Origin: a virus
DNA length: 64,000 bases
Virus genome (UHGV): UHGV-0211472
Reading direction: 5' to 3' (one strand)
The notes beneath the pieces were generated by a model. It was not told the DNA's origin. It worked only from the letters and a program-made list of their open reading frames with translations, and ran no database searches. The translations under genes were made by a program, and so were the position numbers. Of the stretch, positions 1-41,168 are shown one piece after another; position 1 is the first letter of the stretch; every line of letters starts with the position of its first letter.

Positions 1-492
1 ATGGATAACGTCGCATTGCCACCTGTACATTTAAACTTAAGCCCAGCTGGAATGGAATTCATCATGAAGCATGAGGGTATGAGAACTAAGGCTTATAAGG
101 ATTCCGCAGGTATCTGGACGATATGTGTAGGGGCTACGCGCGATATGAATGGTTATCCGGTTAGGCAAGGATTAACATATTCTATAGAGGATTGTCTAGC
201 TCTGCTAGATAGAGACACACAAGACTCTGTTCGTGCTACTCAGAAAAACATAAAGGTTCCTTTGCTTGTTCATGAGTTCGATGCACTCACCTCTTTCAAC
301 TTCAATGTTGGCAGTGGGGCTTTGAGCACATCTAAGCTGAGGAAGGTTATCAATGGAGAAGTCAAAGGTGATATTTATTCCGAATTTCTTCGTTGGGATA
401 AAATCACGGTTAAAGGAGAGAAACGGAGAAGTCCGGGTCTTCATAACAGAAGGGTTGCAGAAGCTGATCTTTATACAGAAGCTAAATATTAA
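1..492 (+). CDS. Lysozyme (GH24 muramidase, T4 E / lambda R-like)
   Basis: 163 aa ORF; catalytic-type arrangement E-x8-D-x5-T (HEGmrtkaYKDsagiWT) near N-terminus as in phage GH24 lysozymes. Confidence 0.7.
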   Translation: MDNVALPPVHLNLSPAGMEFIMKHEGMRTKAYKDSAGIWTICVGATRDMNGYPVRQGLTYSIEDCLALLDRDTQDSVRATQKNIKVPLLVHEFDALTSFNFNVGSGALSTSKLRKVINGEVKGDIYSEFLRWDKITVKGEKRRSPGLHNRRVAEADLYTEAKY

Positions 493-20643: not shown

Positions 20644-22488
20644 TTAGTGCGTATGCATCCAATTTAATCCAATCTGACAATCAGAAGCCAGAGGACATTC
20701 CATGTTCAAGTACTCACCAGCCTTCTTAACACAAAGCTCAGTGTGCTCTTTGAGTTTCTGTACATCATTACGATTTACTGAGAATTGGCCCTCATCGTGC
20801 ATATCAATTACCTTAGCACAACGAACCCCATCCTTCTCAATCCACTTGTTAAGGAACATCATAGCATATTTCATAACAACAGCACCAGCACATTGCAGGA
20901 GTGTGTTAAGGGCTTTATGAACCATAACTTTACCAGTGGCATCTCTTCTCATTGTAATCTTACGACCATCAACTCCAATCAAGTATCCTTGAGCAGCTTT
21001 CTCTGTCATACGATCAATGAGGATTGCAATACACGGGTTCTCTGCTAAGAAACGCGCTCGCATCACTGAACCTTCGTCAGCCCCACCACCTACAATTGAA
21101 CCAAGCTTAGCATCACCAGCACCGTAGTTGAATGCATAGATAAATGTCTTAGCGTTGTCACGAGTAGGAAGACCAGCAAGTTTCTGGTTGTGGGAGTGGA
21201 TATCACCTTCAAGGAGAATATCACGATACATAACAGCAGAAGCTAAACCGCGTTCTGCCAGAGCTTTCTTAGCTGGGTTATTCTCTTCGATTGCTTCAGC
21301 AAGCATATCTCTACACTCTTTGATGAGGTAGTGAGCGAGCATACGAAGTTCAAGTCCAGAACCATCATACCCTAAGAATATTTCTTTACCAGCGGGTATG
21401 TAATATTTGTAAGCACCTACAGGTTTGTCTTTCTTCCCCGGCTTACCTTTCTCGTAAATTACGTTAGTACCTTTTCGTATATAACAATCATCAGGAACAA
21501 CGTTAGTAATAACGAAAGGACGAGAGTGATCACTGTCTGAGTTATAGTCAGACTCAAACAAACTGCGACACTCATGACCAAACAAACCACGGGAGGGAAT
21601 ATTAACCACGATACGATGTTTGAATCGAAAAGTCGGCGTAGCACAGCTGTTAGCTTCTGCCGAAAGTTTACCATCTTTGCGTTCCTTTGCTATGAGTCCG
21701 CTGATAAGGCCTAGCCTGTGAGCCGCTACAACACGTCTCTTAAGCAAACTTCCGACACTCCCTAGCTCACCCCCTAATCCTTCTTCAAGGGTCTCCTCGA
21801 GGTTTGTAGGAGCTGTAGGCCACTTGTTTGAGGTAGCTAGTGCTATCTTAATCTCGTCAAAAGTGATAGGCCTACGTCGGTTAGGATTTAAACCTAAACC
21901 AAATACATAAGCCTTCATGTAGTTCTTAGTCTTAAACCTAAAATGCTTCTCTAAGAACTTCCTGATATCAGCGTCAACCATCTCGGCTGTCTGCTTCTGT
22001 TTAGCATTACCTCGCATCCAAGCTGAATACCATGCTTGGTATGTTCCATACTTTCTCATATCTTTCTTAATTTCAAAAGTATTCCAAGGCTTCTTAGATA
22101 CGTTAAACTCTGGAGGAAGAAAGCCCTCATCCATAAGAGCTTCTTTAACTCGTGCATCCTTCGATGGGTCAAAGTCTACGTATTCGACACAGGTAAAAGC
22201 TCCACCAATGTCTTCTCTCTTCAGCCCAACCCTATCGCAATAAGCTTGAGGCCACTTCTGCAAAGCCCCAGACTTCTTAAATGGCTTCATATAAGTAGAG
22301 CCATCTAATCTCATCTTAGGTAAGAGAGGAATTAGTTCTTTATCAATATTAACAATAATCTCTTTAAGGAGGTGAACATACCACCGAGCATTTCTTCGGT
22401 TGAAACTCACTCCGTGCTTTGCTTGCTTAGAGATTATATCAGCGACAGTCATCTCTGTCAAAAATGGGAGAGCGTCCGGGTTGCTCAC
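20644..22488 (-). CDS. DNA polymerase, family A, polymerase domain only
   Basis: Motif A LGYDGSGLELRMLAHY (DxSxxExR); colinear with T7 gp5 from the thumb onward; no exonuclease motifs in this ORF. Confidence 0.85.
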   Translation of the reverse strand: MSNPDALPFLTEMTVADIISKQAKHGVSFNRRNARWYVHLLKEIIVNIDKELIPLLPKMRLDGSTYMKPFKKSGALQKWPQAYCDRVGLKREDIGGAFTCVEYVDFDPSKDARVKEALMDEGFLPPEFNVSKKPWNTFEIKKDMRKYGTYQAWYSAWMRGNAKQKQTAEMVDADIRKFLEKHFRFKTKNYMKAYVFGLGLNPNRRRPITFDEIKIALATSNKWPTAPTNLEETLEEGLGGELGSVGSLLKRRVVAAHRLGLISGLIAKERKDGKLSAEANSCATPTFRFKHRIVVNIPSRGLFGHECRSLFESDYNSDSDHSRPFVITNVVPDDCYIRKGTNVIYEKGKPGKKDKPVGAYKYYIPAGKEIFLGYDGSGLELRMLAHYLIKECRDMLAEAIEENNPAKKALAERGLASAVMYRDILLEGDIHSHNQKLAGLPTRDNAKTFIYAFNYGAGDAKLGSIVGGGADEGSVMRARFLAENPCIAILIDRMTEKAAQGYLIGVDGRKITMRRDATGKVMVHKALNTLLQCAGAVVMKYAMMFLNKWIEKDGVRCAKVIDMHDEGQFSVNRNDVQKLKEHTELCVKKAGEYLNMECPLASDCQIGLNWMHTH

Positions 22489-22504
22489 TTTATACTCCTT
22501 TAAA

Positions 22505-22909
22505 TTATTGGTAAAGTAAATCTGTAAATGCTTGATTGTCAGCTATTGCATCTAGGTCATTAGGAGATACTCGGATAGTGTTACCTTCAACTCTCCACGG
22601 AGTTGGCGTAGGTGAAGACCTAACTTCAAGAGGCTGCTCTCTGACTAGATGGGCCATGACCTCCTGATCGGCAACTTCCTCTCTTTCTCGAATATCTCTC
22701 TGGATGTAGGCCAGCTTCATGCCCCAAGCTTCTTCAAACTCTTGAGGGTGTTTATCACTGATCACTACATATCGACGATTGACGGAAAACCTTCTTGCTT
22801 TCAAAATAAGATTGCAAAGATCTTCTACTTCATCTTCTTCTAGGTTGTTATAAATATCATCCCACTTCACTACACAGAAGCGGTTTTGGTGTCTAGTTGG
22901 TAGTGGCAT
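22505..22909 (-). CDS. Hypothetical protein
   Basis: 134 aa ORF. Confidence 0.4.
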   Translation of the reverse strand: MPLPTRHQNRFCVVKWDDIYNNLEEDEVEDLCNLILKARRFSVNRRYVVISDKHPQEFEEAWGMKLAYIQRDIREREEVADQEVMAHLVREQPLEVRSSPTPTPWRVEGNTIRVSPNDLDAIADNQAFTDLLYQ

Positions 22910-22912
22910 AGC

Positions 22913-23197
22913 TTAACCTTTCGGGAATGGCATTAAAGATTCCATAGCAGATTTAATTTCGCTATTGATTCGAGCATCACGATAAGAGATAAATTTACCT
23001 TTGCTATCACGTAACATTACATGGGTTCTGGCTGTTTCGTGAGGAAGCAGTGTGATACTGGTTGGGATAGTATCAATCCCTACAGGTAGTTTGTAAATAG
23101 TCTTACTCTCAGCTAGTAGGTAAGACCAAGTACATGGTTTCTTCTCCGGATGGTTAGGGTATGTATCTCTAATCTGAACCATAGCTAATTTATTCAT
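22913..23197 (-). CDS. Hypothetical small protein (tandem paralogue A)
   Basis: Shares TARTxVxLR..GKFISY....L.PFPKG with adjacent 23199..23450. Confidence 0.4.
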   Translation of the reverse strand: MNKLAMVQIRDTYPNHPEKKPCTWSYLLAESKTIYKLPVGIDTIPTSITLLPHETARTHVMLRDSKGKFISYRDARINSEIKSAMESLMPFPKG

Positions 23198-23198
23198 A

Positions 23199-23450
23199 TT
23201 AAACTCCTTTAGGAAATGGGATGAGGTTTTCTATTGCAACACGGAAAGGTTTTTCTACATTCTTATTTTTATAAGAGATGAACTTCCCATCAGCCCCACG
23301 AAGGATTACGTTAGTGCGAGCTGTATTGGGATCTAGATTGATCATAGAGGTGATGTTCTTTTTTGAGTTGTTGTAGTTGTTATCGAAAGTCCACTTATCC
23401 AGATGATTAGCTATTACATCAATAATAGTTACAGTTTTTACAATAGACAT
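23199..23450 (-). CDS. Hypothetical small protein (tandem paralogue B)
   Basis: See paralogue at 22913..23197. Confidence 0.4.
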   Translation of the reverse strand: MSIVKTVTIIDVIANHLDKWTFDNNYNNSKKNITSMINLDPNTARTNVILRGADGKFISYKNKNVEKPFRVAIENLIPFPKGV

Positions 23451-23487
23451 ATTTGTTACCTAAGAAATTTAATTTAGTTTATATAAA

Positions 23488-23514
23488 AGAAAAGGCCACC
23501 CGATTGGGTAGCCT
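23488..23514 (-). terminator. Rho-independent terminator (conserved GGCCACCCGATTGGG hairpin)
   Basis: AAAGGCCACCCGATTGGGTAGCC with flanking A/T runs; near-identical copy at 46162..46184. Confidence 0.4.
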
Positions 23515-23518
23515 CATA

Positions 23519-23836
23519 TTACGATGAGCTTAAAGCTCCTTTGCGAGATCCAGCTGCTTTTCCAGCTCGATCACCACTTTTGCCGCCGTTTGAACGGTTT
23601 GAGCTGACTGATTCAACACGTAAGTTGCTTGACGCATTAGAGCCTCCAGACTTGATAGCTCGTTTGTGTCCAACATCTTTACCTCTGACAGCAGCTTTTC
23701 CATCGCGCTTTTCAACGATGCGACGTGCACGGTGGCGCTGAGCATCTCCGCTCTTGCTCCCAATGCCTGTCTCACCACGGGCAATTGCGGTACGTCTTTC
23801 TTGTGCATAATCTCTCTTTCCTACATGGTCTGCCAT
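23519..23836 (-). CDS. Basic Gly/Ser/Arg/Lys-rich protein (KGG-repeat-like)
   Basis: 105 aa; alternative overlapping frame 23530..23808 encodes a helical 92 aa protein, so the frame choice is unresolved. Confidence 0.3.
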   Translation of the reverse strand: MADHVGKRDYAQERRTAIARGETGIGSKSGDAQRHRARRIVEKRDGKAAVRGKDVGHKRAIKSGGSNASSNLRVESVSSNRSNGGKSGDRAGKAAGSRKGALSSS

Positions 23837-23892
23837 TTAGAACTCCTTAATATATCAGTGTACACTAAGGAGTATACATTATAAGTTACTGT

Positions 23893-24630
23893 TTAAGCTT
23901 TCTTTTCCATTGCTTTAACAATCGCCTTACAGAAACCAGAACGAACAATGTCATCCGATTCGCCGTCTACAATCTCAGCAAACTCATACAGATCGTGTTC
24001 ATCAATAAAGTTAGTAGCCCAAGTTAGACCACTCTCGCGACCACGCATATCATGCTGGTTTGTATCACCCATGCAGAACAATTGAGAGGTTTCTCCCAAT
24101 CGAGTCATGATAGAGAAGGCTTCATCTTTAGTGGTGTTCTGGAACTCATCCACGATAACAATGGCATCATTGAAGGAACGACCACGGAGATATTCCAGAG
24201 GTACAAATTCAATGTTACCATTTCCGATCTGGCATTCATAGAATCCCTTACCATATCGCTGAGTGATAACATCAATGATAGGCATCAGGTAAGGTTCAAA
24301 TTTCTCACGCATTCCTCCCGGAAGTAATCCAAGAGAATTACCCATACCAACTGAAGGACGACTAAGAATGATCTTTTGAATCTTACCGCTCTTCAGTGCA
24401 TCGATAACTGTGGAGGTAATTACAAAGGTCTTACCACAGCCCGCAGGAGCGTCTGTGAACACAACTTGCTTAGTCTTGATAGCATTGAGTAGCTCAGACT
24501 GAAACTGGTTCTGAGGGACTACAGGCTTTGCTAAAACCACCTCTTCATACTCTCGCTTACCCTTACGAGTAACGAGTGCTTCCCGACGAAGGTCTTTCCG
24601 TGATTCTTTCCGTGATTGACGACGACTCAT
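23893..24630 (-). CDS. PhoH-like ATPase
   Basis: Walker A DAPAGCGKTF and PhoH-type downstream motifs. Confidence 0.75.
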   Translation of the reverse strand: MSRRQSRKESRKDLRREALVTRKGKREYEEVVLAKPVVPQNQFQSELLNAIKTKQVVFTDAPAGCGKTFVITSTVIDALKSGKIQKIILSRPSVGMGNSLGLLPGGMREKFEPYLMPIIDVITQRYGKGFYECQIGNGNIEFVPLEYLRGRSFNDAIVIVDEFQNTTKDEAFSIMTRLGETSQLFCMGDTNQHDMRGRESGLTWATNFIDEHDLYEFAEIVDGESDDIVRSGFCKAIVKAMEKKA

Positions 24631-24812
24631 TTACGCTCTCCAATTTCTTCGTAATGACACTCAGTAGTTAAGCAGTCTTTACAGATTGCTGTATAAACCC
24701 TGACGTTAGTAAATCGTTTGTTCTTCCCTTTGGTTGGAGAGTCTTTGGCAAGCTCTCTGATAACCTTGTTACTTAAATGAAGGTTTGTTCCTTCACATCT
24801 AGAGCACTTCAT
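24627..24812 (-). CDS. Small zinc-ribbon protein
   Basis: CxxC ... CxxC spacing (CSRC ... CKDC). Confidence 0.4.
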   Translation of the reverse strand: MKCSRCEGTNLHLSNKVIRELAKDSPTKGKNKRFTNVRVYTAICKDCLTTECHYEEIGERK

Positions 24813-25128
24813 GGTTCATATCTTTATGAATCCTGTAAACAGCTGTCGCCATACAAGCAACAGCCTCATTGTGTGGGAGGTGCATCCCTGTAGAACCATC
24901 CCAATCTTTGAACTCATTGTCAAAGACTCCAGTAGGTTCTGGATACAGAGCTTGCAGCTCAACCAAATCATTAGCAACTTGTTGCCATTTATCATCAGAC
25001 CAGATAGGGTCATCCAACCAGTAATACAAATAGGAATGGATGATCAATTGCCTTCTGTGCCGATTAATTATTTCAGCGGGACTTATCTCACTTCCGTTTG
25101 AAGTCCTAAATGTATTACTGTCAATCAT
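24799..25128 (-). CDS. Hypothetical protein
   Basis: 109 aa ORF. Confidence 0.4.
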   Translation of the reverse strand: MIDSNTFRTSNGSEISPAEIINRHRRQLIIHSYLYYWLDDPIWSDDKWQQVANDLVELQALYPEPTGVFDNEFKDWDGSTGMHLPHNEAVACMATAVYRIHKDMNHEVL

Positions 25129-25130
25129 GA

Positions 25131-25787
25131 TTACTTATTCCAAGTAGTTGATAAGGCTTTCCAAGAGATTGGATAGAGCTTCTTCATCTCTTCATCAATA
25201 GTTTGTGCAAATAGTCGGACCTCATACTGAGCGTGTTCTGACAGACGTTGACGGCATACTTCTGACCAGCCATATAAGGAGCCAGTCCAGATCCACTCCG
25301 TCGTCATTCCCTGAGGTAGGACAAACCGAGCTTGCTCAGGGGCAATCAGGTCAATCAGTTTTTCATAATTACTAACAGCTACTTCATATGCCTCGTTAAT
25401 CAGTGTGAGAGCTTCTGCACGGGCTTCGTCTTGTAATAGGATACCAGAACCTTTGTGAAGGTCTTCAGGTCGGGAGAAGATCTCTTGTGGAATGAATACA
25501 TCAACGTCTCCATCTTTATATCGACGGCTCATCTCATTCCAGCTAAACCCCGTCTGATGTTTTCCTAGCTGGCGAGCAATAGCAATAGGTGCTACACATC
25601 GGAAGGTTACTTGTGGGTGCCTAAAAGGAGTCACATGTTTTTCACGAGCGAGGAAGTTGATGAGACGTTCATCACGTTCATTTAAATCACCTTCACGGGT
25701 TACTCCAAAGGATACACGAGCTGCATTTACTACAGTTTTATCCGAGCCTAAAAACTCTACCAGTTCTGCTTTAAGCTGATCATTCAT
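25131..25787 (-). CDS. Flavin-dependent thymidylate synthase (ThyX)-like
   Basis: ThyX-like N-terminus (GSDKTVVNAARVSFGV) and ...SRRY core; canonical RHR triad appears as KHQ. Confidence 0.55.
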   Translation of the reverse strand: MNDQLKAELVEFLGSDKTVVNAARVSFGVTREGDLNERDERLINFLAREKHVTPFRHPQVTFRCVAPIAIARQLGKHQTGFSWNEMSRRYKDGDVDVFIPQEIFSRPEDLHKGSGILLQDEARAEALTLINEAYEVAVSNYEKLIDLIAPEQARFVLPQGMTTEWIWTGSLYGWSEVCRQRLSEHAQYEVRLFAQTIDEEMKKLYPISWKALSTTWNK

Positions 25788-25818
25788 TACTTTTTCTCTC
25801 CATCCATGAATTTCCTTA

Positions 25819-26028
25819 TTAATATTCTTTTACATAATAAACCACTAAGGTTCCCATCTCTGACAATGTTGATTTATGTAAGCTTACTTTACTATAAATC
25901 TTTGGAGACATCTTAAGAGCCTTCTTAAAACGGCGAGCGTCTTTACGAGTAGCAAAGTGCTCTGTAACAGGTATAGCCGGGTCTTGGTAGAGGTAGTATA
26001 CCACCGTCCAATATTTTTTCATAATCAA
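25819..26028 (-). CDS. Small protein (paralogue of 27504..27731)
   Basis: MKKYW... start and AR.FKK...S.HK pattern shared with 27504..27731. Confidence 0.35.
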   Translation of the reverse strand: MIMKKYWTVVYYLYQDPAIPVTEHFATRKDARRFKKALKMSPKIYSKVSLHKSTLSEMGTLVVYYVKEY

Positions 26029-26297
26029 ACACCTAGGGCAGTAGTTAAGAATGCTTTCAGGTTTGCTTCGGTTTGCATACCAGAGAGGCTGTAATGTGCA
26101 CCACTGTTACGGTCAGGTACAACGAAAGCAGGGATGCTACGAACTCCGTACTTAACAGCTTGTTCACGACCATCACCTTCAAGGATGTTAATCTCTTCCA
26201 CTTCTACATCGAACTCCTTAACAACCTTCTCAAAGATAGGAGCCATTGCTTTACATGGAGCACACTGATCACTATAAAACTTAATCACTTTAGACAT
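26025..26297 (-). CDS. Thioredoxin-like protein
   Basis: 90 aa with CAPC redox motif in Trx-like context (FYSDQCAPCKAM). Confidence 0.6.
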   Translation of the reverse strand: MSKVIKFYSDQCAPCKAMAPIFEKVVKEFDVEVEEINILEGDGREQAVKYGVRSIPAFVVPDRNSGAHYSLSGMQTEANLKAFLTTALGV

Positions 26298-26303
26298 GTA
26301 AAC

Positions 26304-26483
26304 CCTTATGCAGTCAGGAGGTGAAGCAGGAATGGGATAACAACAGCTACAATAACCATGATGGTTGATGCTGTTTGAAGCTCACCTTTCTTGTCAGGGG
26401 TTTCTTCAATAAGCTTACCAGAAGCCCAATAAACACCACCACCAATAAAGATAGCCCAAATACCCCATACGATTGCTGATAAC
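26304..26483 (-). CDS. Small two-helix membrane protein
   Basis: 59 aa ORF (MLSAIVWGIWAIFIGGGVYW...) with AAGGA upstream; below the track's 60 aa cutoff; competes with track ORF 26347..26646. Confidence 0.3.
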
Positions 26484-26545
26484 ATATATCTATATCCTTA
26501 TAAATAAGTTCGCCCCACCTCGGGTTAGGAGACAGGGCGTAGGTT

Positions 26546-27109
26546 TTAGTAAGACACATCACCACTTGAATGGGACATGTTGCTCTTGACAAAGTAACAA
26601 TACTTGCCAAGACCTTCATTAATTTCTTGAAGCATACTCTGATCAACTGGATAAGTAGCTAAATCGCCATCAAACTCATCCATCTTCTCAATAATACACA
26701 TCAAGGTCATGCACATATCAGAGAGCATACCATCCATGTCTAGATCAGCATTACCCTCTGAGAACCAAGCATGAGAGAGGTAGTTAGCTGCTGTAGCATC
26801 CACTTTAACACAGTGGTAGCGCATACGTTCAGCAATACGATCTCCTACTTGTCGTGCGTAATCTTCCAGCTCGTCAAACATACCATGAACACCCTGAAAC
26901 CCTGCACCAGAGACGTTCCAGTGGTAGTTCTTAGCTTTGATATGCAAGAGTTCCATGTTAGCTTGTAAGCAGCTCAGGATGTGTTCTAGGCTGTTTCCGC
27001 TAATCATGCCTTGCATCGTTTCAAGGCGAGAGATTGAAAGCTCAGACCGGTCTAACACACTATAGCTGTCACGACCAATCTCAGGTAAATCAAAAACATT
27101 CTTATGCAT
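26546..27109 (-). CDS. Dps/ferritin-like protein
   Basis: Dps-type motifs YHWNVSGAGFQGVHGMFDE and VGDRIAERM; start set to ATG (MHKNVF) with GGAGA upstream. Confidence 0.5.
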   Translation of the reverse strand: MHKNVFDLPEIGRDSYSVLDRSELSISRLETMQGMISGNSLEHILSCLQANMELLHIKAKNYHWNVSGAGFQGVHGMFDELEDYARQVGDRIAERMRYHCVKVDATAANYLSHAWFSEGNADLDMDGMLSDMCMTLMCIIEKMDEFDGDLATYPVDQSMLQEINEGLGKYCYFVKSNMSHSSGDVSY

Positions 27110-27431
27110 TTGGCTTTTCTCCATCAAGTTCAACTGAATTAGCAACGTTACGTTCCAGATTGTCAATTACCTGCTGGGTAATTACGATGCAGTTCTGTGG
27201 ATCTACTGACTTAGAACGCCCCATTTCAGGGTCATACACCTTAACACGCTTAGCAGTTGAACCTGTAACCTGAAGAACCTTCAACAGATATCCCTGATTA
27301 CCAATAGACCAAGCAACAACATCACGATTCTTGATAAAGCGACCAAGCATATCACGATGATAAAACTGTTGCATCACCTTGGATTTTGTAATCTCTTCAG
27401 TGGGCGGGGCCACTTTACTCAAATCTAACAT
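27102..27431 (-). CDS. Hypothetical protein
   Basis: 109 aa ORF. Confidence 0.4.
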   Translation of the reverse strand: MLDLSKVAPPTEEITKSKVMQQFYHRDMLGRFIKNRDVVAWSIGNQGYLLKVLQVTGSTAKRVKVYDPEMGRSKSVDPQNCIVITQQVIDNLERNVANSVELDGEKPNA

Positions 27432-27503
27432 AACTCTCTCCTGTAAAATACAAATTCTTATTGTACTCTATATACATTTGAGAGTTACCATATCTACTAC
27501 CAA

Positions 27504-27731
27504 TTAGTAGTGTACTTTTCCACTGAGATAAACACGACCAGAGGAATATTCTCTGGCCTTATGGATGCTAACGCTCTTAGTTAAGTCCCCATGAAACATA
27601 GACTTTTTAAAATCTCGAGCCCGTTGACGAGTAGGTAATGAGGTCATAGTCGTACAACCAGATGACCACTTAATCTTCACTAACCAGAACTTTTTCATAA
27701 TGATATCACACACCTTTAGACGCAACCACAC
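27504..27731 (-). CDS. Small protein (paralogue of 25819..26028)
   Basis: MKKFW... start; see 25819..26028. Confidence 0.35.
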   Translation of the reverse strand: MWLRLKVCDIIMKKFWLVKIKWSSGCTTMTSLPTRQRARDFKKSMFHGDLTKSVSIHKAREYSSGRVYLSGKVHY

Positions 27732-28239
27732 CTTCAGAGTTATTATAACGACCCTTCACTGCATAAGAATGCTCTCCTGCATGAGAGTGCTCAAACATAA
27801 CCATCTGACCAACACGCATACCAGAACGGATTCTTAAGCTGTGATGTTTGGTCACATTATGAAATTCAAACGTCAATTTACTGTTATTAAACCCCCCATC
27901 TGCCCACCCGGCGTGAAGATGGTTCAAACCACAACGAGCCATAGATGAACGAAGAACAAACAAGCTTGAGATGTTATCTGGAAGGTTAAACTCTTCCATA
28001 GAGTGAGCCAAGAAGAACTGACCCGGAGTAATAACCAAACCCTCTTCAGGAATCTTTACTTCCTTCCACTGAAGATTCTCTTTCGCATCAATATCAACGA
28101 TGCCATCAGCCTGTTCTTCAACAAGGATAGTATCACCAATACGGATATCCACACTAGCAGCGTTAACATACTTATGCTCCGCATCCAAATAGCCATTGTC
28201 AATTACATCGTGCAGTTCAACACTTCCTAGTAAACTCAT
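27706..28239 (-). CDS. dCTP deaminase / dUTPase-family protein
   Basis: 177 aa; Dcd-like core ...GWADGGFNNSKLTFEFHN... Confidence 0.7.
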   Translation of the reverse strand: MSLLGSVELHDVIDNGYLDAEHKYVNAASVDIRIGDTILVEEQADGIVDIDAKENLQWKEVKIPEEGLVITPGQFFLAHSMEEFNLPDNISSLFVLRSSMARCGLNHLHAGWADGGFNNSKLTFEFHNVTKHHSLRIRSGMRVGQMVMFEHSHAGEHSYAVKGRYNNSEGVVASKGV

Positions 28240-28260
28240 TCTTATTCCTTAGTTATTTGT

Positions 28261-29562
28261 TCACACTTCAAAAGAGAAACCGCGACCCGATTCATCGGCA
28301 AACCGAACTGTACGGGTTTGAGGTTCTAATACTTCAGGGTTGTTGGCAACAAATCTATCAGCGAGGCTATCTCCTAAATCCTCTATCACATCTTCATCAG
28401 TCCACACAGTCCTAACCGGTACATCAAAGTCACCAGCAACAAAACCCTGACCGGAGAATTGACGTGCGCTGACAGTAAAGTCATTTGACCGACCACGAGA
28501 AGAACCAGTCATCCACCGCTCTGTAGAACCGTTCGTAATACCAAGAGCCTCTTCAAAAGATGTTCTAGGATCGGGGCTTTCACTTCGTGACTCTTGTGCT
28601 CGACGCATTTCAGGGACTGCAAACACCCCTTCCATTGTGTTGTGATGATTAGTCTCATCTTCCCGACCAAGTAGATCTCCACTTGTATTGGTTGTTAAGT
28701 TTGTCAACCCTTCAGACCAATACGCACTAATCTGACTAGATCCATGAACACTTGACATTAACTGGATTTCTTCATAAGGGATTCCAAAGAATCGACTCAT
28801 GTCACGATTAACACAATACTGAGCACTTGTTGTATCCTCAACAAGAGCAACCTGACCCCATTCATTGATCAGATGACTGACCGGTTGAGGTGTGGGAAGA
28901 TATCGAGATTGTGCCATATATTGGTATGCAACAGATGGAGCGGAGAATCTTAATACCTGTGAATTAGGCCACTTCTTGTGAACATACTTGATTTCACGAC
29001 CAGAAACAACTACTGGACAGGGGGAGGTCATAGCCAAATATCCATGAGGGGTCATGAATAGATTGTCAAGAGTAATCGCACCACGGCACATCATAGGAAA
29101 GCTGTCCAACACCTCTTCAATAGAAGTAGGATAGTTAAACATGAATTGGATACGAACCCCACTCCACTGGAACTCAATAATATCGGTAAATGTTAACAGA
29201 GATCCTTCAGCGTAGGCTTCATTCGTAGCTTCAGCAAGAAGGGAAGAGTACTCAATATCTTGAGACTCGAGCCACTCTTTCACGTTACTTTCAACCTCTC
29301 GTCCGAGATCTTGCCACTGGTCATGGTGGATAAAGGTGTTTCGAGTTCTTGGGGCCTGTCCTCTGACAATAAAGATATCAATGTCATGAGGTGCTCTGTT
29401 ATTAAGAACAGCATCACGAACAGCCCCACCAGTGATGATGGGACAAATACAGTCTGGAATCAAGTTGTTGTTAATCAGCTGTTCAATGAAGTGACGACCA
29501 ACAGCGATATCAGGTTGTTGAGCAACCTTATCTGCAATTCGGTTAATCGGGATAACAATCAT
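28261..29562 (-). CDS. Nucleotidyltransferase (CCA-adding / poly(A) polymerase head-domain type)
   Basis: IITGGAVRDAVLN-x9-DIDIFI matches the GGxVRD...DxD head motif; start moved to ATG MIVIPINR to avoid 56 nt overlap. Confidence 0.5.
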   Translation of the reverse strand: MIVIPINRIADKVAQQPDIAVGRHFIEQLINNNLIPDCICPIITGGAVRDAVLNNRAPHDIDIFIVRGQAPRTRNTFIHHDQWQDLGREVESNVKEWLESQDIEYSSLLAEATNEAYAEGSLLTFTDIIEFQWSGVRIQFMFNYPTSIEEVLDSFPMMCRGAITLDNLFMTPHGYLAMTSPCPVVVSGREIKYVHKKWPNSQVLRFSAPSVAYQYMAQSRYLPTPQPVSHLINEWGQVALVEDTTSAQYCVNRDMSRFFGIPYEEIQLMSSVHGSSQISAYWSEGLTNLTTNTSGDLLGREDETNHHNTMEGVFAVPEMRRAQESRSESPDPRTSFEEALGITNGSTERWMTGSSRGRSNDFTVSARQFSGQGFVAGDFDVPVRTVWTDEDVIEDLGDSLADRFVANNPEVLEPQTRTVRFADESGRGFSFEV

Positions 29563-29563
29563 T

Positions 29564-30121
29564 TTACATTTTCCAATATAATGAAGGTGGGTCGTAAGGG
29601 TCAAATCCTGTGAGTTCACACAAGTATTTATAAACCTTAACAGTTAAATTAACGTCCTGTTCACAATAAGTAAACATATCCTCAGTGAAAGCATCCCATG
29701 CTTCCTCTTGCTCACCGTAATCACCTTTAAGTTCCCCTAAGAACTCACCCCATTGCTTCAAGCCATGACCTCTTGGGCCATGTCTAGGGTCGCCTTTCGG
29801 GTACTCAGGACTGTCACCAATACGGTCAGGTTTAAGATATCGACTAAGACATAAAGTGTCAAAGACGTTAAAACGATAGTTAATCAGATTGGGATACATC
29901 TTCTTCAGAGCACAAAGGTCGAAGTCAATAATATTGTGACCCACGAGCACATCTGCTTCTGTAAGTTTATGAATCCCATCTTCAATTTGGTGAGGCCGAT
30001 AGCCCCACCTTTCACCAGTTTCAACATCGAAAACATAAATACACCATACTTTGGTTATATCATCGTATAGTGCATTACTCTCAATATCGAATGCAAACAC
30101 TTTCTTCTTTTTCTTTACCAC
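29564..30121 (-). CDS. 3'-5' proofreading exonuclease (T7 gp5 N-terminal domain-like), stand-alone
   Basis: Exo I FDIES, Exo [11 protein letters not shown], Exo III YCEQDV; colinear with T7 DNA polymerase residues ~1-190. Confidence 0.75.
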
Positions 30122-30660
30122 GGTGAAGCTCCATCTGCTTGGCTGACGAGAGAAGCTGCATCCTCTCCGTTAGTTAAAACGAATGGATTATCTTCATCAA
30201 CTTCAAAGTCTTCCCTTTCTACAAGTCTACCGGTTTCACTGATATACTTAGTATAACAGACACCTGTCTGACCGTAGTTACGTTCTTTCAGTAATCGAAT
30301 GACTGAGAGGTTCTTAGCTAAGCCGTCAGCTTGCTTGTCACGCTCAAAGCCAATGATACACTGACACCAACGCATAAGAGAACGAGAGCCAGTGAACTGT
30401 ACTTCACGTACCTGTCCACCTTCTTCATGAGGAGCACCACCTGCCGGAGCATTAAGGTGAGATAGCACGAAAGCGGTAAAGTCTAACTCTTTACACATAC
30501 CAGCAAGCTCGGAAGCGATCTTACTGATTTCAGTGTTAATCTCTGAAGGTGTTAAATGAGATACCAGAGCGGTAATGTTATCAAGGATGATAAATTTACA
30601 CTGGTTTTCAACTACCCAGAAACGAATACACTGTTTAATGTCTTCCCATTCGTTTTGCAA
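30115..30660 (-). CDS. Primase-helicase, 3' exon (helicase motifs H2-H4)
   Basis: [10 protein letters not shown] and QFTGSRS helicase motifs; no Walker A; frame is open upstream to a TGA with no ATG/GTG; true exon start likely at 30675 or 30690. Confidence 0.7.
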
Positions 30661-30910
30661 TAATTCAATGAAGGACGCAACTCCTTCACCCGTAGCATTA
30701 TATCTACTGCCCGTGGTTTCCCACGGGATTGGACTATATCATCACTCCTATTAAGGAGGCTAGGCGCTTCCACTAGCATTAGCTTCTAGTGTACTCCTTT
30801 CGGATAGTCTCTGCACTTTCTAGGATGTATCCTAGCTTAGCTCAGGATTGGCATATCTTTCGACTTAGCTTTCCCTGAATTCACCTAGTTTTACTTCGGC
30901 CATTGTGTTA
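30661..30910 (-). ncRNA. Group I self-splicing intron (subgroup IA-like) in primase-helicase gene
   Basis: Minus-strand P/Q/R/S cores GAATTCAGGGAAAGC, CAATCCTGAGC, GCAGAGACTATCC, GATATAGTCCAA; P9 CCCGTGG-GAAA-CCACGGG; guide GGCCGAAG pairs with exon end ACTTCGGT; 3' boundary uncertain (30676 or 30691). Confidence 0.6.
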
Positions 30911-40204: not shown

Positions 40205-41168
40205 TGTAATACTCCACTAGTTCAGAAAAGAGAGATGAGATTGTGTTACCAACTTCTTCAAGAGTAAGACCAGAACTTGGGCCAGTACGCTGAATCAGTC
40301 GGGCTGTAAAGTTTTGTACTGTAATGCTTTCCAACTTATTGTCTATTGTTTCACGTTTGTGACCATGACAGTTGGACCAGAGTCTTAACCACCCTGACAT
40401 TGTTTCATACTCGTCTGGGTCTTGATCTTTATCAAGAGCAAATCCTCGTAAGGCCTCTGGGTTATGGTTACGAACATAACCATTCTCATTGTAACCAACA
40501 CCGAAGGGGTTTTGAACCCATACTTGCTTCGTGTACTCATCAGAGTCTACAACCAAAGGAAGGAATGCTGCTGCTGACATACCATTTTCGATAACAATGG
40601 CTGTGTTCTCACCACTCCCATTGGAGGTTCCTCGTTGAGACCATCTACCGAAGAAGTCACGGCCCAATCCAGCTAACACTAGAGCGATGCCGATGCGTTT
40701 ACGCTTCAGCCACTCTTCCCTGTCTTCAATTCCTTCTGCTAGGAAATCCATTCCACGATACTGCCCTTCCAGAATACTACGGAAGAGCATAAGTCCTGTG
40801 AAGATCTGATCTGCTGGATGCTCACGAAGGTTGACAGCAACACTATTCGCTGAAGTGATTGTAAATACGTCACGATAGCAAGACATGGAGTTCATAATGT
40901 CTGCTGTTTCAACCAAGTTCTTTTCAATCTCAGATGCAGGGTGATTGTGAAAAGAGTGAGTCCAGTAATTCAACATCTCCAATTGCAAGTTAATACCACG
41001 GTTGAAGCGTCTATAACGCCCATCTTCCGTGATAACTTCGCCATCAATATCATTTACGCATTGGCCTTGCATGTAGTTGTGGACACCGAAGCACCCACGA
41101 CCTAAGAACTTCTGTTCCCCTAAATCCTGTTGAAGATTCAGAGGTACGATCGTTGTGGAGATTGACAT
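40197..41168 (-). CDS. Hypothetical protein
   Basis: 323 aa ORF, overlapping operon arrangement. Confidence 0.4.
   Translation of the reverse strand: MSISTTIVPLNLQQDLGEQKFLGRGCFGVHNYMQGQCVNDIDGEVITEDGRYRRFNRGINLQLEMLNYWTHSFHNHPASEIEKNLVETADIMNSMSCYRDVFTITSANSVAVNLREHPADQIFTGLMLFRSILEGQYRGMDFLAEGIEDREEWLKRKRIGIALVLAGLGRDFFGRWSQRGTSNGSGENTAIVIENGMSAAAFLPLVVDSDEYTKQVWVQNPFGVGYNENGYVRNHNPEALRGFALDKDQDPDEYETMSGWLRLWSNCHGHKRETIDNKLESITVQNFTARLIQRTGPSSGLTLEEVGNTISSLFSELVEYYND

What the first reader, a model, noticed from the sequence alone, without database searches (positions are those of the whole stretch)
20644..30121. T7-type DNA polymerase encoded as two separate genes 7 kb apart
ORF 29564..30121 (185 aa) carries the Exo I/II/III motifs ([20 protein letters not shown]) and is colinear with the first ~190 residues of T7 gp5. 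ORF 20644..22488 (614 aa) carries polymerase motif A (DGSGLELRMLAHY) and aligns with gp5 from the thumb onward. About ten intact genes lie between them (nucleotidyltransferase, dCTP deaminase, Dps-like, thioredoxin-like, ThyX-like, PhoH-like and others), so this is not an intron or intein. Proofreading would then be supplied in trans. The phage also encodes its own thioredoxin-like protein (26025..26297); T7 gp5 uses host thioredoxin as processivity factor.
Basis: partly seen in the sequence, partly recalled or inferred. Interest (0 to 1): 0.6.

Follow-up and report, generated by a model that had tools for sequence, protein, structure and literature searches.

The report
Known split T7-like phage DNA polymerase
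This phiEco32-like E. coli phage encodes its T7-type DNA polymerase as two genes, a proofreading exonuclease and a polymerase core about 7 kb apart; this is real, but it has been annotated and published for this phage group since 2008.

Summary
ORF 29564..30121(-) is a complete, catalytically intact T7-gp5-type 3'-5' exonuclease domain. ORF 20644..22488(-) is a complete exonuclease-less T7-type family A polymerase. Placed end to end they align colinearly with single-chain gp5, and the break falls in the exo-pol linker near gp5 residue 209. Sixteen ORFs (7,075 nt) lie between them. Both genes are under purifying selection (dN/dS 0.05-0.13). The same gene order is found in more than 50 independently sequenced genomes and in the distant Salmonella phage 7-11, so it is neither an assembly artefact nor a pseudogene.

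The window is a phiEco32-like podophage (Gordonclarkvirinae). The 2008 phiEco32 GenBank record already annotates both halves. Papers from 2012 and 2023 state that the separation is common to phiEco32-like and LUZ24-like phages. PHROGs has families named "DNA polymerase exonuclease subunit". The idea that the phage thioredoxin is a processivity factor was published in 2021. Proofreading in trans and the thioredoxin role are still untested inferences.

New minor points:
- Every exo-less polymerase sampled carries a 75-112 aa thumb insertion that every fused relative sampled lacks.
- The adjacent primase/helicase gene holds a 253-nt ORF-less group I intron.

Verdict: already known, low interest.

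The parts
29564..30121 (-). 3'-5' proofreading exonuclease subunit (185 aa), orthologue of phiEco32 gp74. GTG start; the gene overlaps the end of the primase/helicase gene by 7 nt (GTGGTAA).
   Evidence: Pfam PF01612. T7 gp5 residues 3-182, E=9e-12. AF2 pLDDT 93.6, and the top 27 PDB fold hits are all T7 gp5. Catalytic D12/E14/D68/D156 invariant. dN/dS 0.10-0.13. PHROG 'DNA polymerase exonuclease subunit', E=2.8e-77 and 2.6e-38.
20644..22488 (-). Exonuclease-less T7-type family A DNA polymerase core (614 aa: thumb, palm, fingers), orthologue of phiEco32 gp53. GTG start with an AAGGAG Shine-Dalgarno sequence upstream.
   Evidence: Pfam PF00476. T7 gp5, E=1.7e-32, colinear. AF2 pLDDT 91.1, top 27 PDB hits T7 gp5 at E~1e-25. 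Motifs A/B/C and the C-terminal His invariant in 64 homologues. dN/dS 0.045-0.076.
22174..22320 (-). Thumb insertion (pol residues 57-105) at the site of the T7 thioredoxin-binding domain. It is 49 aa here against about 76 aa in T7.
   Evidence: Alignment to T7 gp5. Its length is conserved at 46-57 aa in 64 homologues, both split and fused.
21769..22089 (-). Clade-specific helical insertion (pol residues 134-240). It is 74-112 aa in all 56 other exo-less polymerases sampled and 14-20 aa in all 7 fused relatives sampled.
   Evidence: AF2 secondary structure shows helices at 137-237. tblastn finds it only inside polymerase genes of phiEco32-, 7-11-, Privateer-, GAP52- and Aeromonas-type phages.
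22505..29562 (-). Intervening block of 16 ORFs, all on the same strand. It includes PhoH, an Nlig-Ia ligase-like protein, ThyX, thioredoxin, a Dps-like protein, dCTP deaminase and a nucleotidyltransferase.
   Evidence: The orthologous block is present in phiEco32, SU10, EK010 and 7-11.
26025..26297 (-). Phage thioredoxin (90 aa, CAPC active site, lacks the first ~20 residues of E. coli TrxA). Candidate processivity factor.
   Evidence: Pfam PF00085, E=4e-13. E. coli TrxA, E=3e-8, aligned to TrxA residues 24-105. Homologues are found mainly in the prolate podophage group that has the split polymerase, plus a few uncultured phages.
30115..32158 (-). T7 gp4-like primase/helicase gene lying immediately upstream of the exo gene. 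It is interrupted by a group I intron: exon 1 is 30911..32158 and exon 2 is 30115..30657.
   Evidence: Alignment with phiEco32 gp75. The spliced product is 596 aa and matches gp75 at 595 of 597 aligned positions, stop included.
30658..30910 (-). Group I intron, 253 nt, with no ORF.
   Evidence: Rfam RF00028, 86.3 bits, E=1.4e-20. U.G pair at the 5' splice site and a terminal G.

Best explanation
The phage replicase is a T7-type family A DNA polymerase whose two domains are made as separate proteins.

Shown:
- The 185-aa product of 29564..30121 is a complete DEDDy 3'-5' exonuclease domain. The 614-aa product of 20644..22488 is a complete polymerase core.
- Together they are colinear with single-chain gp5 and nothing is missing. 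The cut lies in the exo-pol linker.
- Both genes are conserved and under purifying selection.
- The exo gene overlaps the stop codon of the primase/helicase gene, so it may be translationally coupled to it. [quoted passage not shown]

Inferred:
- The two proteins reassemble non-covalently into a gp5-like heterodimer, and the exo subunit edits misincorporated 3' ends in trans. This is analogous to the epsilon and alpha subunits of E. coli Pol III.
- The arrangement primase/helicase, then exo, then 10-20 genes, then pol is shared with 7-11-like and LUZ24-like phages. It therefore probably arose once in an old common ancestor, when nucleotide-metabolism genes were inserted or rearranged into a fused T7-like gene.
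- The phage's own truncated thioredoxin may bind the shortened thumb insertion and act as processivity factor. This step is the weakest; I give it roughly 0.35.
For: - Sequence and fold homology of both halves to T7 gp5.
- Colinear alignment with the break at gp5 residue ~209.
- The two halves hit adjacent parts of PHROG 17: 667-826 and 836-1233.
- Exo catalytic residues are invariant in 46 standalone homologues. Polymerase motifs are invariant in 64 homologues.
- dN/dS is 0.05-0.13.
- The same order occurs in phiEco32, SU10, EK010 and 7-11, and 57 records are colinear over the 11-kb region.
- Exo and pol homologues from metagenomes share identical longest-contig lengths (81643, 86560, 100903, 86289), which indicates they co-occur on the same contigs.
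- Single-chain relatives exist: Vibrio phage JSF28, 678 aa, and Aeromonas phage 1233, 746 aa.
- For an independently split T7-like PolA (S-SBP1), an AlphaFold2 complex superposes on a fused relative (PMC10201439).
- The polymerase and the thioredoxin were detected by mass spectrometry in SU10 (PMC4281155).
- The primase/helicase ends in an acidic tail with a terminal aromatic residue (...[16 protein letters not shown]). From my own knowledge, this resembles the T7 gp4 tail that binds gp5.
Against: - I found no biochemical or structural study of the phiEco32-type pair. Complex formation and exonuclease activity are untested.
- The exo product is not among the SU10 proteins listed in the passages I read.
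- The thumb insertion is about 27 aa shorter than the T7 thioredoxin-binding domain. The same-length insertion also occurs in LUZ24-like polymerases, whose phages showed no homologue of this thioredoxin at E<1e-5.
- The published AF2 attempt for S-SBP1 PolA failed to predict thioredoxin binding.
Confidence: 0.75

Rival explanations
1. The exo protein is a free-standing nuclease that works independently of the polymerase, for example in recombination, primer or end processing, or host DNA degradation. The polymerase would then replicate without proofreading.
For: The genes are 7 kb apart, and the exo gene is coupled to the primase/helicase gene rather than to pol. Standalone DEDD nucleases with other roles share the fold (lower-ranked hits such as RNase T, ExoI and diDNase).
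Against: The best sequence and fold matches are specifically the gp5 exo domain, about 5 orders of magnitude better in E-value than any non-gp5 structure. Its C-terminus and the polymerase N-terminus together reconstitute the gp5 linker with no residues missing. Exo-less pol and standalone exo co-occur throughout the clade. PMC10201439 states that PolAs need the exo domain for stability.
Confidence: 0.17
2. The split is an artefact (misassembly or rearrangement), or the two ORFs are decaying fragments of a broken gene.
For: None found.
Against: The order is identical in 57 independent phage records and in the distant phage 7-11. Both ORFs are full length in every relative examined. dN/dS is 0.05-0.13 and the catalytic residues are invariant.
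Confidence: 0.01
3. The two halves are joined after transcription or translation, by a trans-splicing intron or a split intein, to give a single chain.
For: Group I introns are active in this phage group. One sits in the neighbouring primase/helicase gene, and relatives carry intron-like sequence in the pol gene.
Against: The one Rfam hit in the window lies in the primase/helicase gene, not at either polymerase gene end. Neither protein has an intein domain in Pfam. Each ORF has its own SD and start and a proper stop at the domain boundary. Sixteen conserved, expressed genes lie between them.
Confidence: 0.01

Closest known systems
phiEco32 gp53 (DNA polymerase-like, lacks exo domains) and gp74 (type I DNA polymerase, 3'-5' exo domain); Kuravirus / Gordonclarkvirinae
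   Same: Orthologous. The polymerase is 98% and the exo 96% identical at the amino-acid level. Gene order is the same, and the overlap with the primase/helicase gene is the same.
   Different: Nothing that bears on the finding. This window differs by about 9% at the nucleotide level, by having fewer small ORFs between the two genes (16 against 20), and by the intron in the primase/helicase gene.
Salmonella phage 7-11 gp82 'DNA polymerase exonuclease subunit' and gp63 'DNA polymerase I'; also Privateer, Vp_R1, BUCT695 and the LUZ24/PaP3/tf group ('DNA polymerase part I/II')
   Same: The exo gene lies just downstream of the primase/helicase gene and an exo-less polymerase lies 6-7 kb or about 10 genes further on. 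The polymerase carries the same thumb insertions.
   Different: Identity is 47-51% for 7-11 and about 40% for the LUZ24 group. 7-11 has an endonuclease VII gene between the helicase and exo genes. No homologue of this thioredoxin was found in the LUZ24 group.
S-SBP1-like cyanopodoviruses, split T7-like PolA (Czernecki et al. 2023, PMC10201439)
   Same: The exo and pol domains of a T7-like PolA are separate gene products. That paper predicts a complex that superposes on a fused relative, and reports a shortened thioredoxin-binding region.
   Different: There the two genes are adjacent and overlap, having arisen by a recent +1 frameshift. Here they are 7 kb apart and the split is old, shared across several phage families.
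T7 gp5 / E. coli thioredoxin
   Same: Closest solved structure for both halves. Same exo and pol motifs, Tyr at the ddNTP-discrimination position, and a C-terminal His.
   Different: T7 gp5 is a single 704-aa chain that uses host thioredoxin. Here there are two chains, a thumb insert 27 aa shorter, three extra insertions (107, 43 and 31 aa), and a phage-encoded truncated thioredoxin.
E. coli Pol III alpha/epsilon; archaeal PolD DP1/DP2
   Same: Functional analogy: the proofreading nuclease is a separate subunit.
   Different: These are unrelated polymerase families. The comparison rests on my own knowledge and on the discussion in PMC10201439.

Membership tests
Family A DNA polymerase, T7-like subfamily | Polymerase motifs A, B and C with catalytic Asp/Glu and the motif-B Arg/Lys/Tyr | tested here: met
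   DGSGLELR, RDNAKTFIYAFNYGAG and HDE are present. D375, R443, K447, Y451, Y455, D565 and E566 are invariant in 64 homologues. Pfam PF00476, E=4e-23.
Family A DNA polymerase, T7-like subfamily | Closer to T7 gp5 than to Pol I or other PolA, in both sequence and fold | tested here: met
   Sequence: gp5 E=1.7e-32 against Klenow 4e-6. Fold: gp5 E~1e-25 against Bst Pol I ~1e-15.
Family A DNA polymerase, T7-like subfamily | Tyr at motif-B position B3 (T7 Y526) | tested here: met
   Y451 aligns with T7 Y526 and is invariant. PMC10201439 gives this criterion for cluster #5.
Family A DNA polymerase, T7-like subfamily | 3'-5' exonuclease domain on the same polypeptide as the polymerase | tested here: not met
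   The polymerase ORF starts at the equivalent of gp5 residue ~210. The ORF upstream of it has no similarity to gp5 (E=0.31). The exo domain is encoded 7,075 nt away.
DEDDy 3'-5' exonuclease domain of PolA (PF01612) | Exo I (DxE), Exo II (Nx2-3D) and Exo III (Yx3D) motifs, and the RNase H-like fold | tested here: met
   D12, E14, N63, D68, Y152 and D156 are present. The AF2 model has pLDDT 93.6 and its best fold matches are the gp5 exo domain.
DEDDy 3'-5' exonuclease domain of PolA (PF01612) | Exonuclease activity on mismatched 3' ends | not testable with these tools
   Needs biochemistry.
Split exo/pol PolA of phiEco32-, 7-11- and LUZ24-type phages (PHROG 'DNA polymerase exonuclease subunit') | A standalone ~165-195 aa exo gene next to the primase/helicase gene, plus an exo-less polymerase gene further down the same strand | tested here: met
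   The literature describes the same arrangement.
Split exo/pol PolA of phiEco32-, 7-11- and LUZ24-type phages (PHROG 'DNA polymerase exonuclease subunit') | Physical association of the two gene products | not testable with these tools
Only the S-SBP1 prediction in the literature is available.
T7 gp5-thioredoxin processivity complex | A ~76-aa thioredoxin-binding loop inserted in the thumb | tested here: inconclusive
   An insertion is present at the homologous site but is only 49 aa long and is weakly similar, E=5 for that stretch alone.
T7 gp5-thioredoxin processivity complex | Thioredoxin binds the polymerase and raises its processivity | not testable with these tools
   The phage encodes a 90-aa CAPC thioredoxin. 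Binding has not been tested.
Group I intron (Rfam RF00028), in the neighbouring primase/helicase gene | Conserved core P3-P9, P1 with a U.G pair at the 5' splice site, a terminal G, and restoration of the reading frame on excision | tested here: met
   86.3 bits against a gathering score of 50, with a full-length model match. Excising 30658..30910 gives a protein that matches phiEco32 gp75 at 595 of 597 aligned positions, stop included. Splicing itself was not tested.

The most novel reading that the evidence does not exclude
The old exo-less clade (phiEco32-, 7-11- and LUZ24-type) may be more than a cut gp5. It could be a distinct multi-subunit PolA holoenzyme. In this reading, the clade-specific 75-112 aa thumb insertion, which is absent from every fused relative sampled, serves as the docking or clamping module that replaces the covalent exo link. 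The exo subunit is delivered stoichiometrically with the primase/helicase through translational coupling. In the prolate podophages, a phage-made truncated thioredoxin replaces host TrxA as processivity factor. Separate genes would also let the phage tune the ratio of proofreading to synthesis. None of this has been reconstituted.
Probability: 0.25. Interest if true: 0.45.

Novelty: already known. Interest (0 to 1): 0.15.

Why it matters
A PolA that works with a detachable proofreading subunit is a natural experiment on how the exo and pol domains communicate. It could also be a source of engineerable polymerase/exonuclease pairs. However, the split in this phage group is already in GenBank annotations, PHROGs and several papers, so this window adds only another member. 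What is still open is biochemical: whether the two proteins, and the phage thioredoxin, form a holoenzyme. The sequence alone cannot settle that.

Tried and rejected
1. I tried AlphaFold2 on a concatenated exo+pol chain with a block alignment, to see whether the halves dock as in gp5. The two proteins were modelled separately instead.
2. The original phiEco32 paper (Savalia 2008, PMC2587145) is not held. I relied on its GenBank annotation and on a paper that cites it for this point.
3. I checked whether the ORF just upstream of pol (22505..22909) is a degraded exo remnant. It has no similarity to gp5 (E=0.31) and belongs to a PHROG of unknown function. Rejected.
4. I looked for an intron or intein that might join the halves. 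Rfam gives a single hit in the window, in the primase/helicase gene and not at either polymerase gene end, and there are no intein domains. Rejected.
5. A perfect sigma-70 consensus (TTGACA-17-TATAAT with TG) lies inside the 5' end of the pol ORF. The -35 element is not conserved in EK010 or 7-11, and the -10 element is fixed by the codons for A-D-I-I. I treat it as probably fortuitous.
6. The phage-sigma promoter motif TAATGTAT has 5 matches against 2.9 expected, which is not significant. Only one match, at 23874-23881, lies between the two genes. This says nothing either way about co-transcription.
7. No tRNA genes are present.

Full report
**What the window is.** The 11-kb region around the finding is about 90-91% identical in nucleotide sequence to many Escherichia phages of the Gordonclarkvirinae, including phiEco32, SU10, 172-1, NJ01 and LAMP. 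In 57 records a single colinear match covers at least 80% of the region. The window is therefore a phiEco32-like prolate (C3-morphotype) podophage. The genes of interest lie in the leftward-transcribed cluster that is the experimentally determined middle expression class in phiEco32 (PMC8948821).

**Checking the observation.**
- The 185-aa ORF matches Pfam DNA_pol_A_exo1 and T7 gp5 residues 3-182 at E=9e-12.
- Its Exo I, II and III motifs are intact. D12, E14, H62, N63, D68 and D156 are invariant, and Y152 nearly so, in 46 standalone homologues that go down to 32% identity.
- An AlphaFold2 model of it is confident (pLDDT 93.6). Its 27 best PDB matches are all T7 gp5 chains (E~1e-10). The next best structure is about five orders of magnitude weaker in E-value.
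- The 614-aa ORF matches Pfam DNA_pol_A and T7 gp5 at E=1.7e-32, in four colinear stretches covering chain residues 289-698 of the 698-residue crystal construct, which is about 295-704 in full-length gp5 numbering.
- Its model has pLDDT 91.1. Again T7 gp5 is the best fold match (E~1e-25), against about 1e-15 for Bst or Mycobacterium Pol I.
- Motifs A, B (with Tyr at the T7 Y526 position) and C, and the C-terminal His, are invariant across 64 homologues.

**Where the break lies.** I joined the exo and pol sequences end to end and aligned them to T7 gp5 and to two single-chain relatives found by tblastn: Vibrio phage JSF28/ICP3 (678 aa) and Aeromonas phage 1233 (746 aa). The joined sequence is colinear with all three, and the junction falls at gp5 residue ~209, in the exo-pol linker. 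In the PHROG 17 profile the two ORFs occupy adjacent positions, 667-826 and 836-1233. No part of gp5 is missing and none is duplicated.

**The intervening genes.** The genes are separated by 7,075 nt holding 16 same-strand ORFs, not about ten. Their identities are confirmed: PhoH, ThyX, dCTP deaminase, Dps/ferritin-like, thioredoxin, nucleotidyltransferase, plus an Nlig-Ia ligase-like protein.

Neither holds.
- The same order is seen in phiEco32, SU10 and EK010 (a different genus), and in Salmonella phage 7-11, a different family with only about 50% protein identity.
- dN/dS against phiEco32 and SU10 is 0.10-0.13 for the exo gene and 0.045-0.05 for pol. Against EK010, pol gives 0.076.
- Each gene has its own Shine-Dalgarno sequence and GTG start.
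- The ORF just upstream of pol is not an exo remnant.
- Rfam finds no intron at either gene end, and there is no intein domain.
- In metagenomic data all 59 exo homologues are standalone proteins, mostly 160-250 aa, with a few shorter partial sequences.
- Most of the listed polymerase homologues are exo-less.

**How it most likely works.**
- Shown: there are two complete, conserved, complementary domains of a gp5-type enzyme.
- Shown: the exo gene overlaps the stop codon of the primase/helicase gene (GTGGTAA), so it may be translationally coupled to it.
- Inferred: the two proteins reassemble into a gp5-like heterodimer and the exo subunit proofreads in trans.
- Indirect support comes from a published AlphaFold2 complex of an independently split T7-like PolA (S-SBP1), which superposes on a fused relative. 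The same paper states that PolAs need the exo domain for stability (PMC10201439).
- The primase/helicase ends in an acidic tail with a terminal Trp. From my own knowledge, this resembles the gp4 tail that docks on gp5, and it is consistent with a T7-like replisome.

**The thioredoxin idea.**
- The phage thioredoxin is a 90-aa CAPC protein that lacks the first ~20 residues of E. coli TrxA.
- Its homologues occur mainly in the prolate podophage group.
- Thioredoxin and polymerase were both detected by mass spectrometry in SU10 (PMC4281155).
- The polymerase has an insertion at the site of the T7 thioredoxin-binding domain, but it is 49 aa long rather than about 76.
- LUZ24-like polymerases have a similar insertion, yet no homologue of this thioredoxin was found in those phages.
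- For S-SBP1, AF2 did not predict thioredoxin binding.
- I rate the processivity-factor role at roughly one in three.

**What is already known.**
- The 2008 phiEco32 GenBank record annotates gp53 as [quoted passage not shown] and gp74 as "type I DNA polymerase; contains 3'-5' exonuclease domain".
- The 7-11 record calls its orthologue "DNA polymerase exonuclease subunit".
- PMC3517423 (2012) says that polymerase and proofreading activities are encoded by separate genes in all LUZ24-group phages, and that a similar organisation was reported for phiEco32.
- PMC7881722 (2021) proposes that the phage thioredoxin couples with the polymerase.
- PHROGs has three families named "DNA polymerase exonuclease subunit".
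- PMC10201439 (2023) analyses exo/pol gene fission in T7-like PolAs in general.
- Both the observation and the interpretation are therefore already published. Only the biochemistry is missing.

**One small addition.** In an alignment of 64 polymerase homologues I compared the exo-less proteins with the fused ones.
- All 56 other exo-less proteins (no N-terminal extension) carry 74-112 residues at window positions 134-240, where the window protein has 107. They carry 11-46 residues at positions 329-371.
- All 7 fused relatives, which have a 149-166-aa N-terminal exo domain, have only 14-20 and 6 residues at those sites.
- The first insertion is helical in the model.
- By tblastn it occurs only inside polymerase genes of this phage supergroup.
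- The exo-less proteins probably form one clade, so this is effectively a single evolutionary event and not a statistical correlation. It still marks this lineage as more than a simple cut of gp5, and it is a candidate docking or DNA-clamping module.

**Noticed in passing: an intron.**
- The primase/helicase gene just upstream of the exo gene appears as two ORFs of 416 and 181 aa.
- Alignment with phiEco32 shows a clean 253-nt insertion.
- The insertion is a group I intron: RF00028, 86.3 bits, E=1.4e-20.
- Removing 30658..30910 restores a 596-aa protein that matches phiEco32 gp75 at 595 of 597 aligned positions, stop included.
- Only one record in the phage collection, VTCCBPA_211, has an intron at this site. 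There it contains a 176-aa ORF, and the two exons are annotated as separate genes, the first as "DNA directed DNA polymerase" and the second as "helicase".
- Related phages (LAMP, KBNP1711, Bas89, Bas93, Bas94) carry intron-like sequence inside the pol gene instead. About 450-aa truncated polymerase proteins in the protein search are consistent with this.

**Verdict.** The finding is already known, and its interest is low.

Noticed in passing
window 30658..30910 (-), within the primase/helicase gene 30115..32158: A 253-nt ORF-less group I intron (RF00028, 86.3 bits) splits the primase/helicase gene into ORFs of 416 and 181 aa. Excising it restores a 596-aa protein that matches phiEco32 gp75 at 595 of 597 aligned positions, stop included. 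Only Escherichia phage VTCCBPA_211 has an intron at this site. There it carries a 176-aa ORF, and the exons are annotated as separate genes ('DNA directed DNA polymerase' and 'helicase').
   Followed up: yes
relatives: LAMP 37155-37224, KBNP1711 40455-40524, Bas93 35729-35823, Bas94 34614-34708 (record coordinates); proteins P0073-P0076: Several Gordonclarkvirinae carry sequence similar to this intron inside their pol gene, in two cases next to an endonuclease VII-type ORF. Truncated polymerase products of about 450 aa appear in the protein database. In those phages the polymerase may therefore be encoded in three pieces (exo, pol exon 1, pol exon 2). The pol gene in this window is uninterrupted.
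   Followed up: partly
window 21769..22089 (-), pol residues 134-240: A helical thumb insertion of about 107 aa. It is 74-112 aa in all 56 other exo-less polymerase homologues sampled and is reduced to 14-20 aa in all 7 fused homologues sampled. Its function is unknown. I did not find it discussed in the papers I read.
   Followed up: partly
window 22433..22461 (-), inside the 5' end of the pol ORF: A perfect extended sigma-70 consensus (TTGACA, 17 nt, TG-n-TATAAT; 12 of 12). It is identical in phiEco32 and SU10, but the -35 element is lost in EK010 and 7-11. It is probably a by-product of the coding sequence.
   Followed up: partly
window 32787..33335 (-): A free-standing NUMOD4 + HNH_3 homing-endonuclease gene upstream of the gamma-glutamyl cyclotransferase gene. 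EK010 has an HNH gene at the same position and phiEco32 does not. This is consistent with mobile endonucleases shuffling through the replication module.
   Followed up: no
window 29562..29619 (-): The mechanically listed 452-aa nucleotidyltransferase ORF overlaps the exo gene by 56 nt. The likely true start is the ATG at 29562, one base after the exo stop (433 aa), as in phiEco32. That version matches PHROG 12715 over its full length.
   Followed up: yes
window 30115..30200 (-), C-terminus of the primase/helicase: The helicase ends in an acidic tail with a terminal aromatic residue (...[16 protein letters not shown]). This resembles the T7 gp4 C-terminal tail that binds gp5/thioredoxin. The resemblance is recalled from my own knowledge and was not tested.
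   Followed up: no
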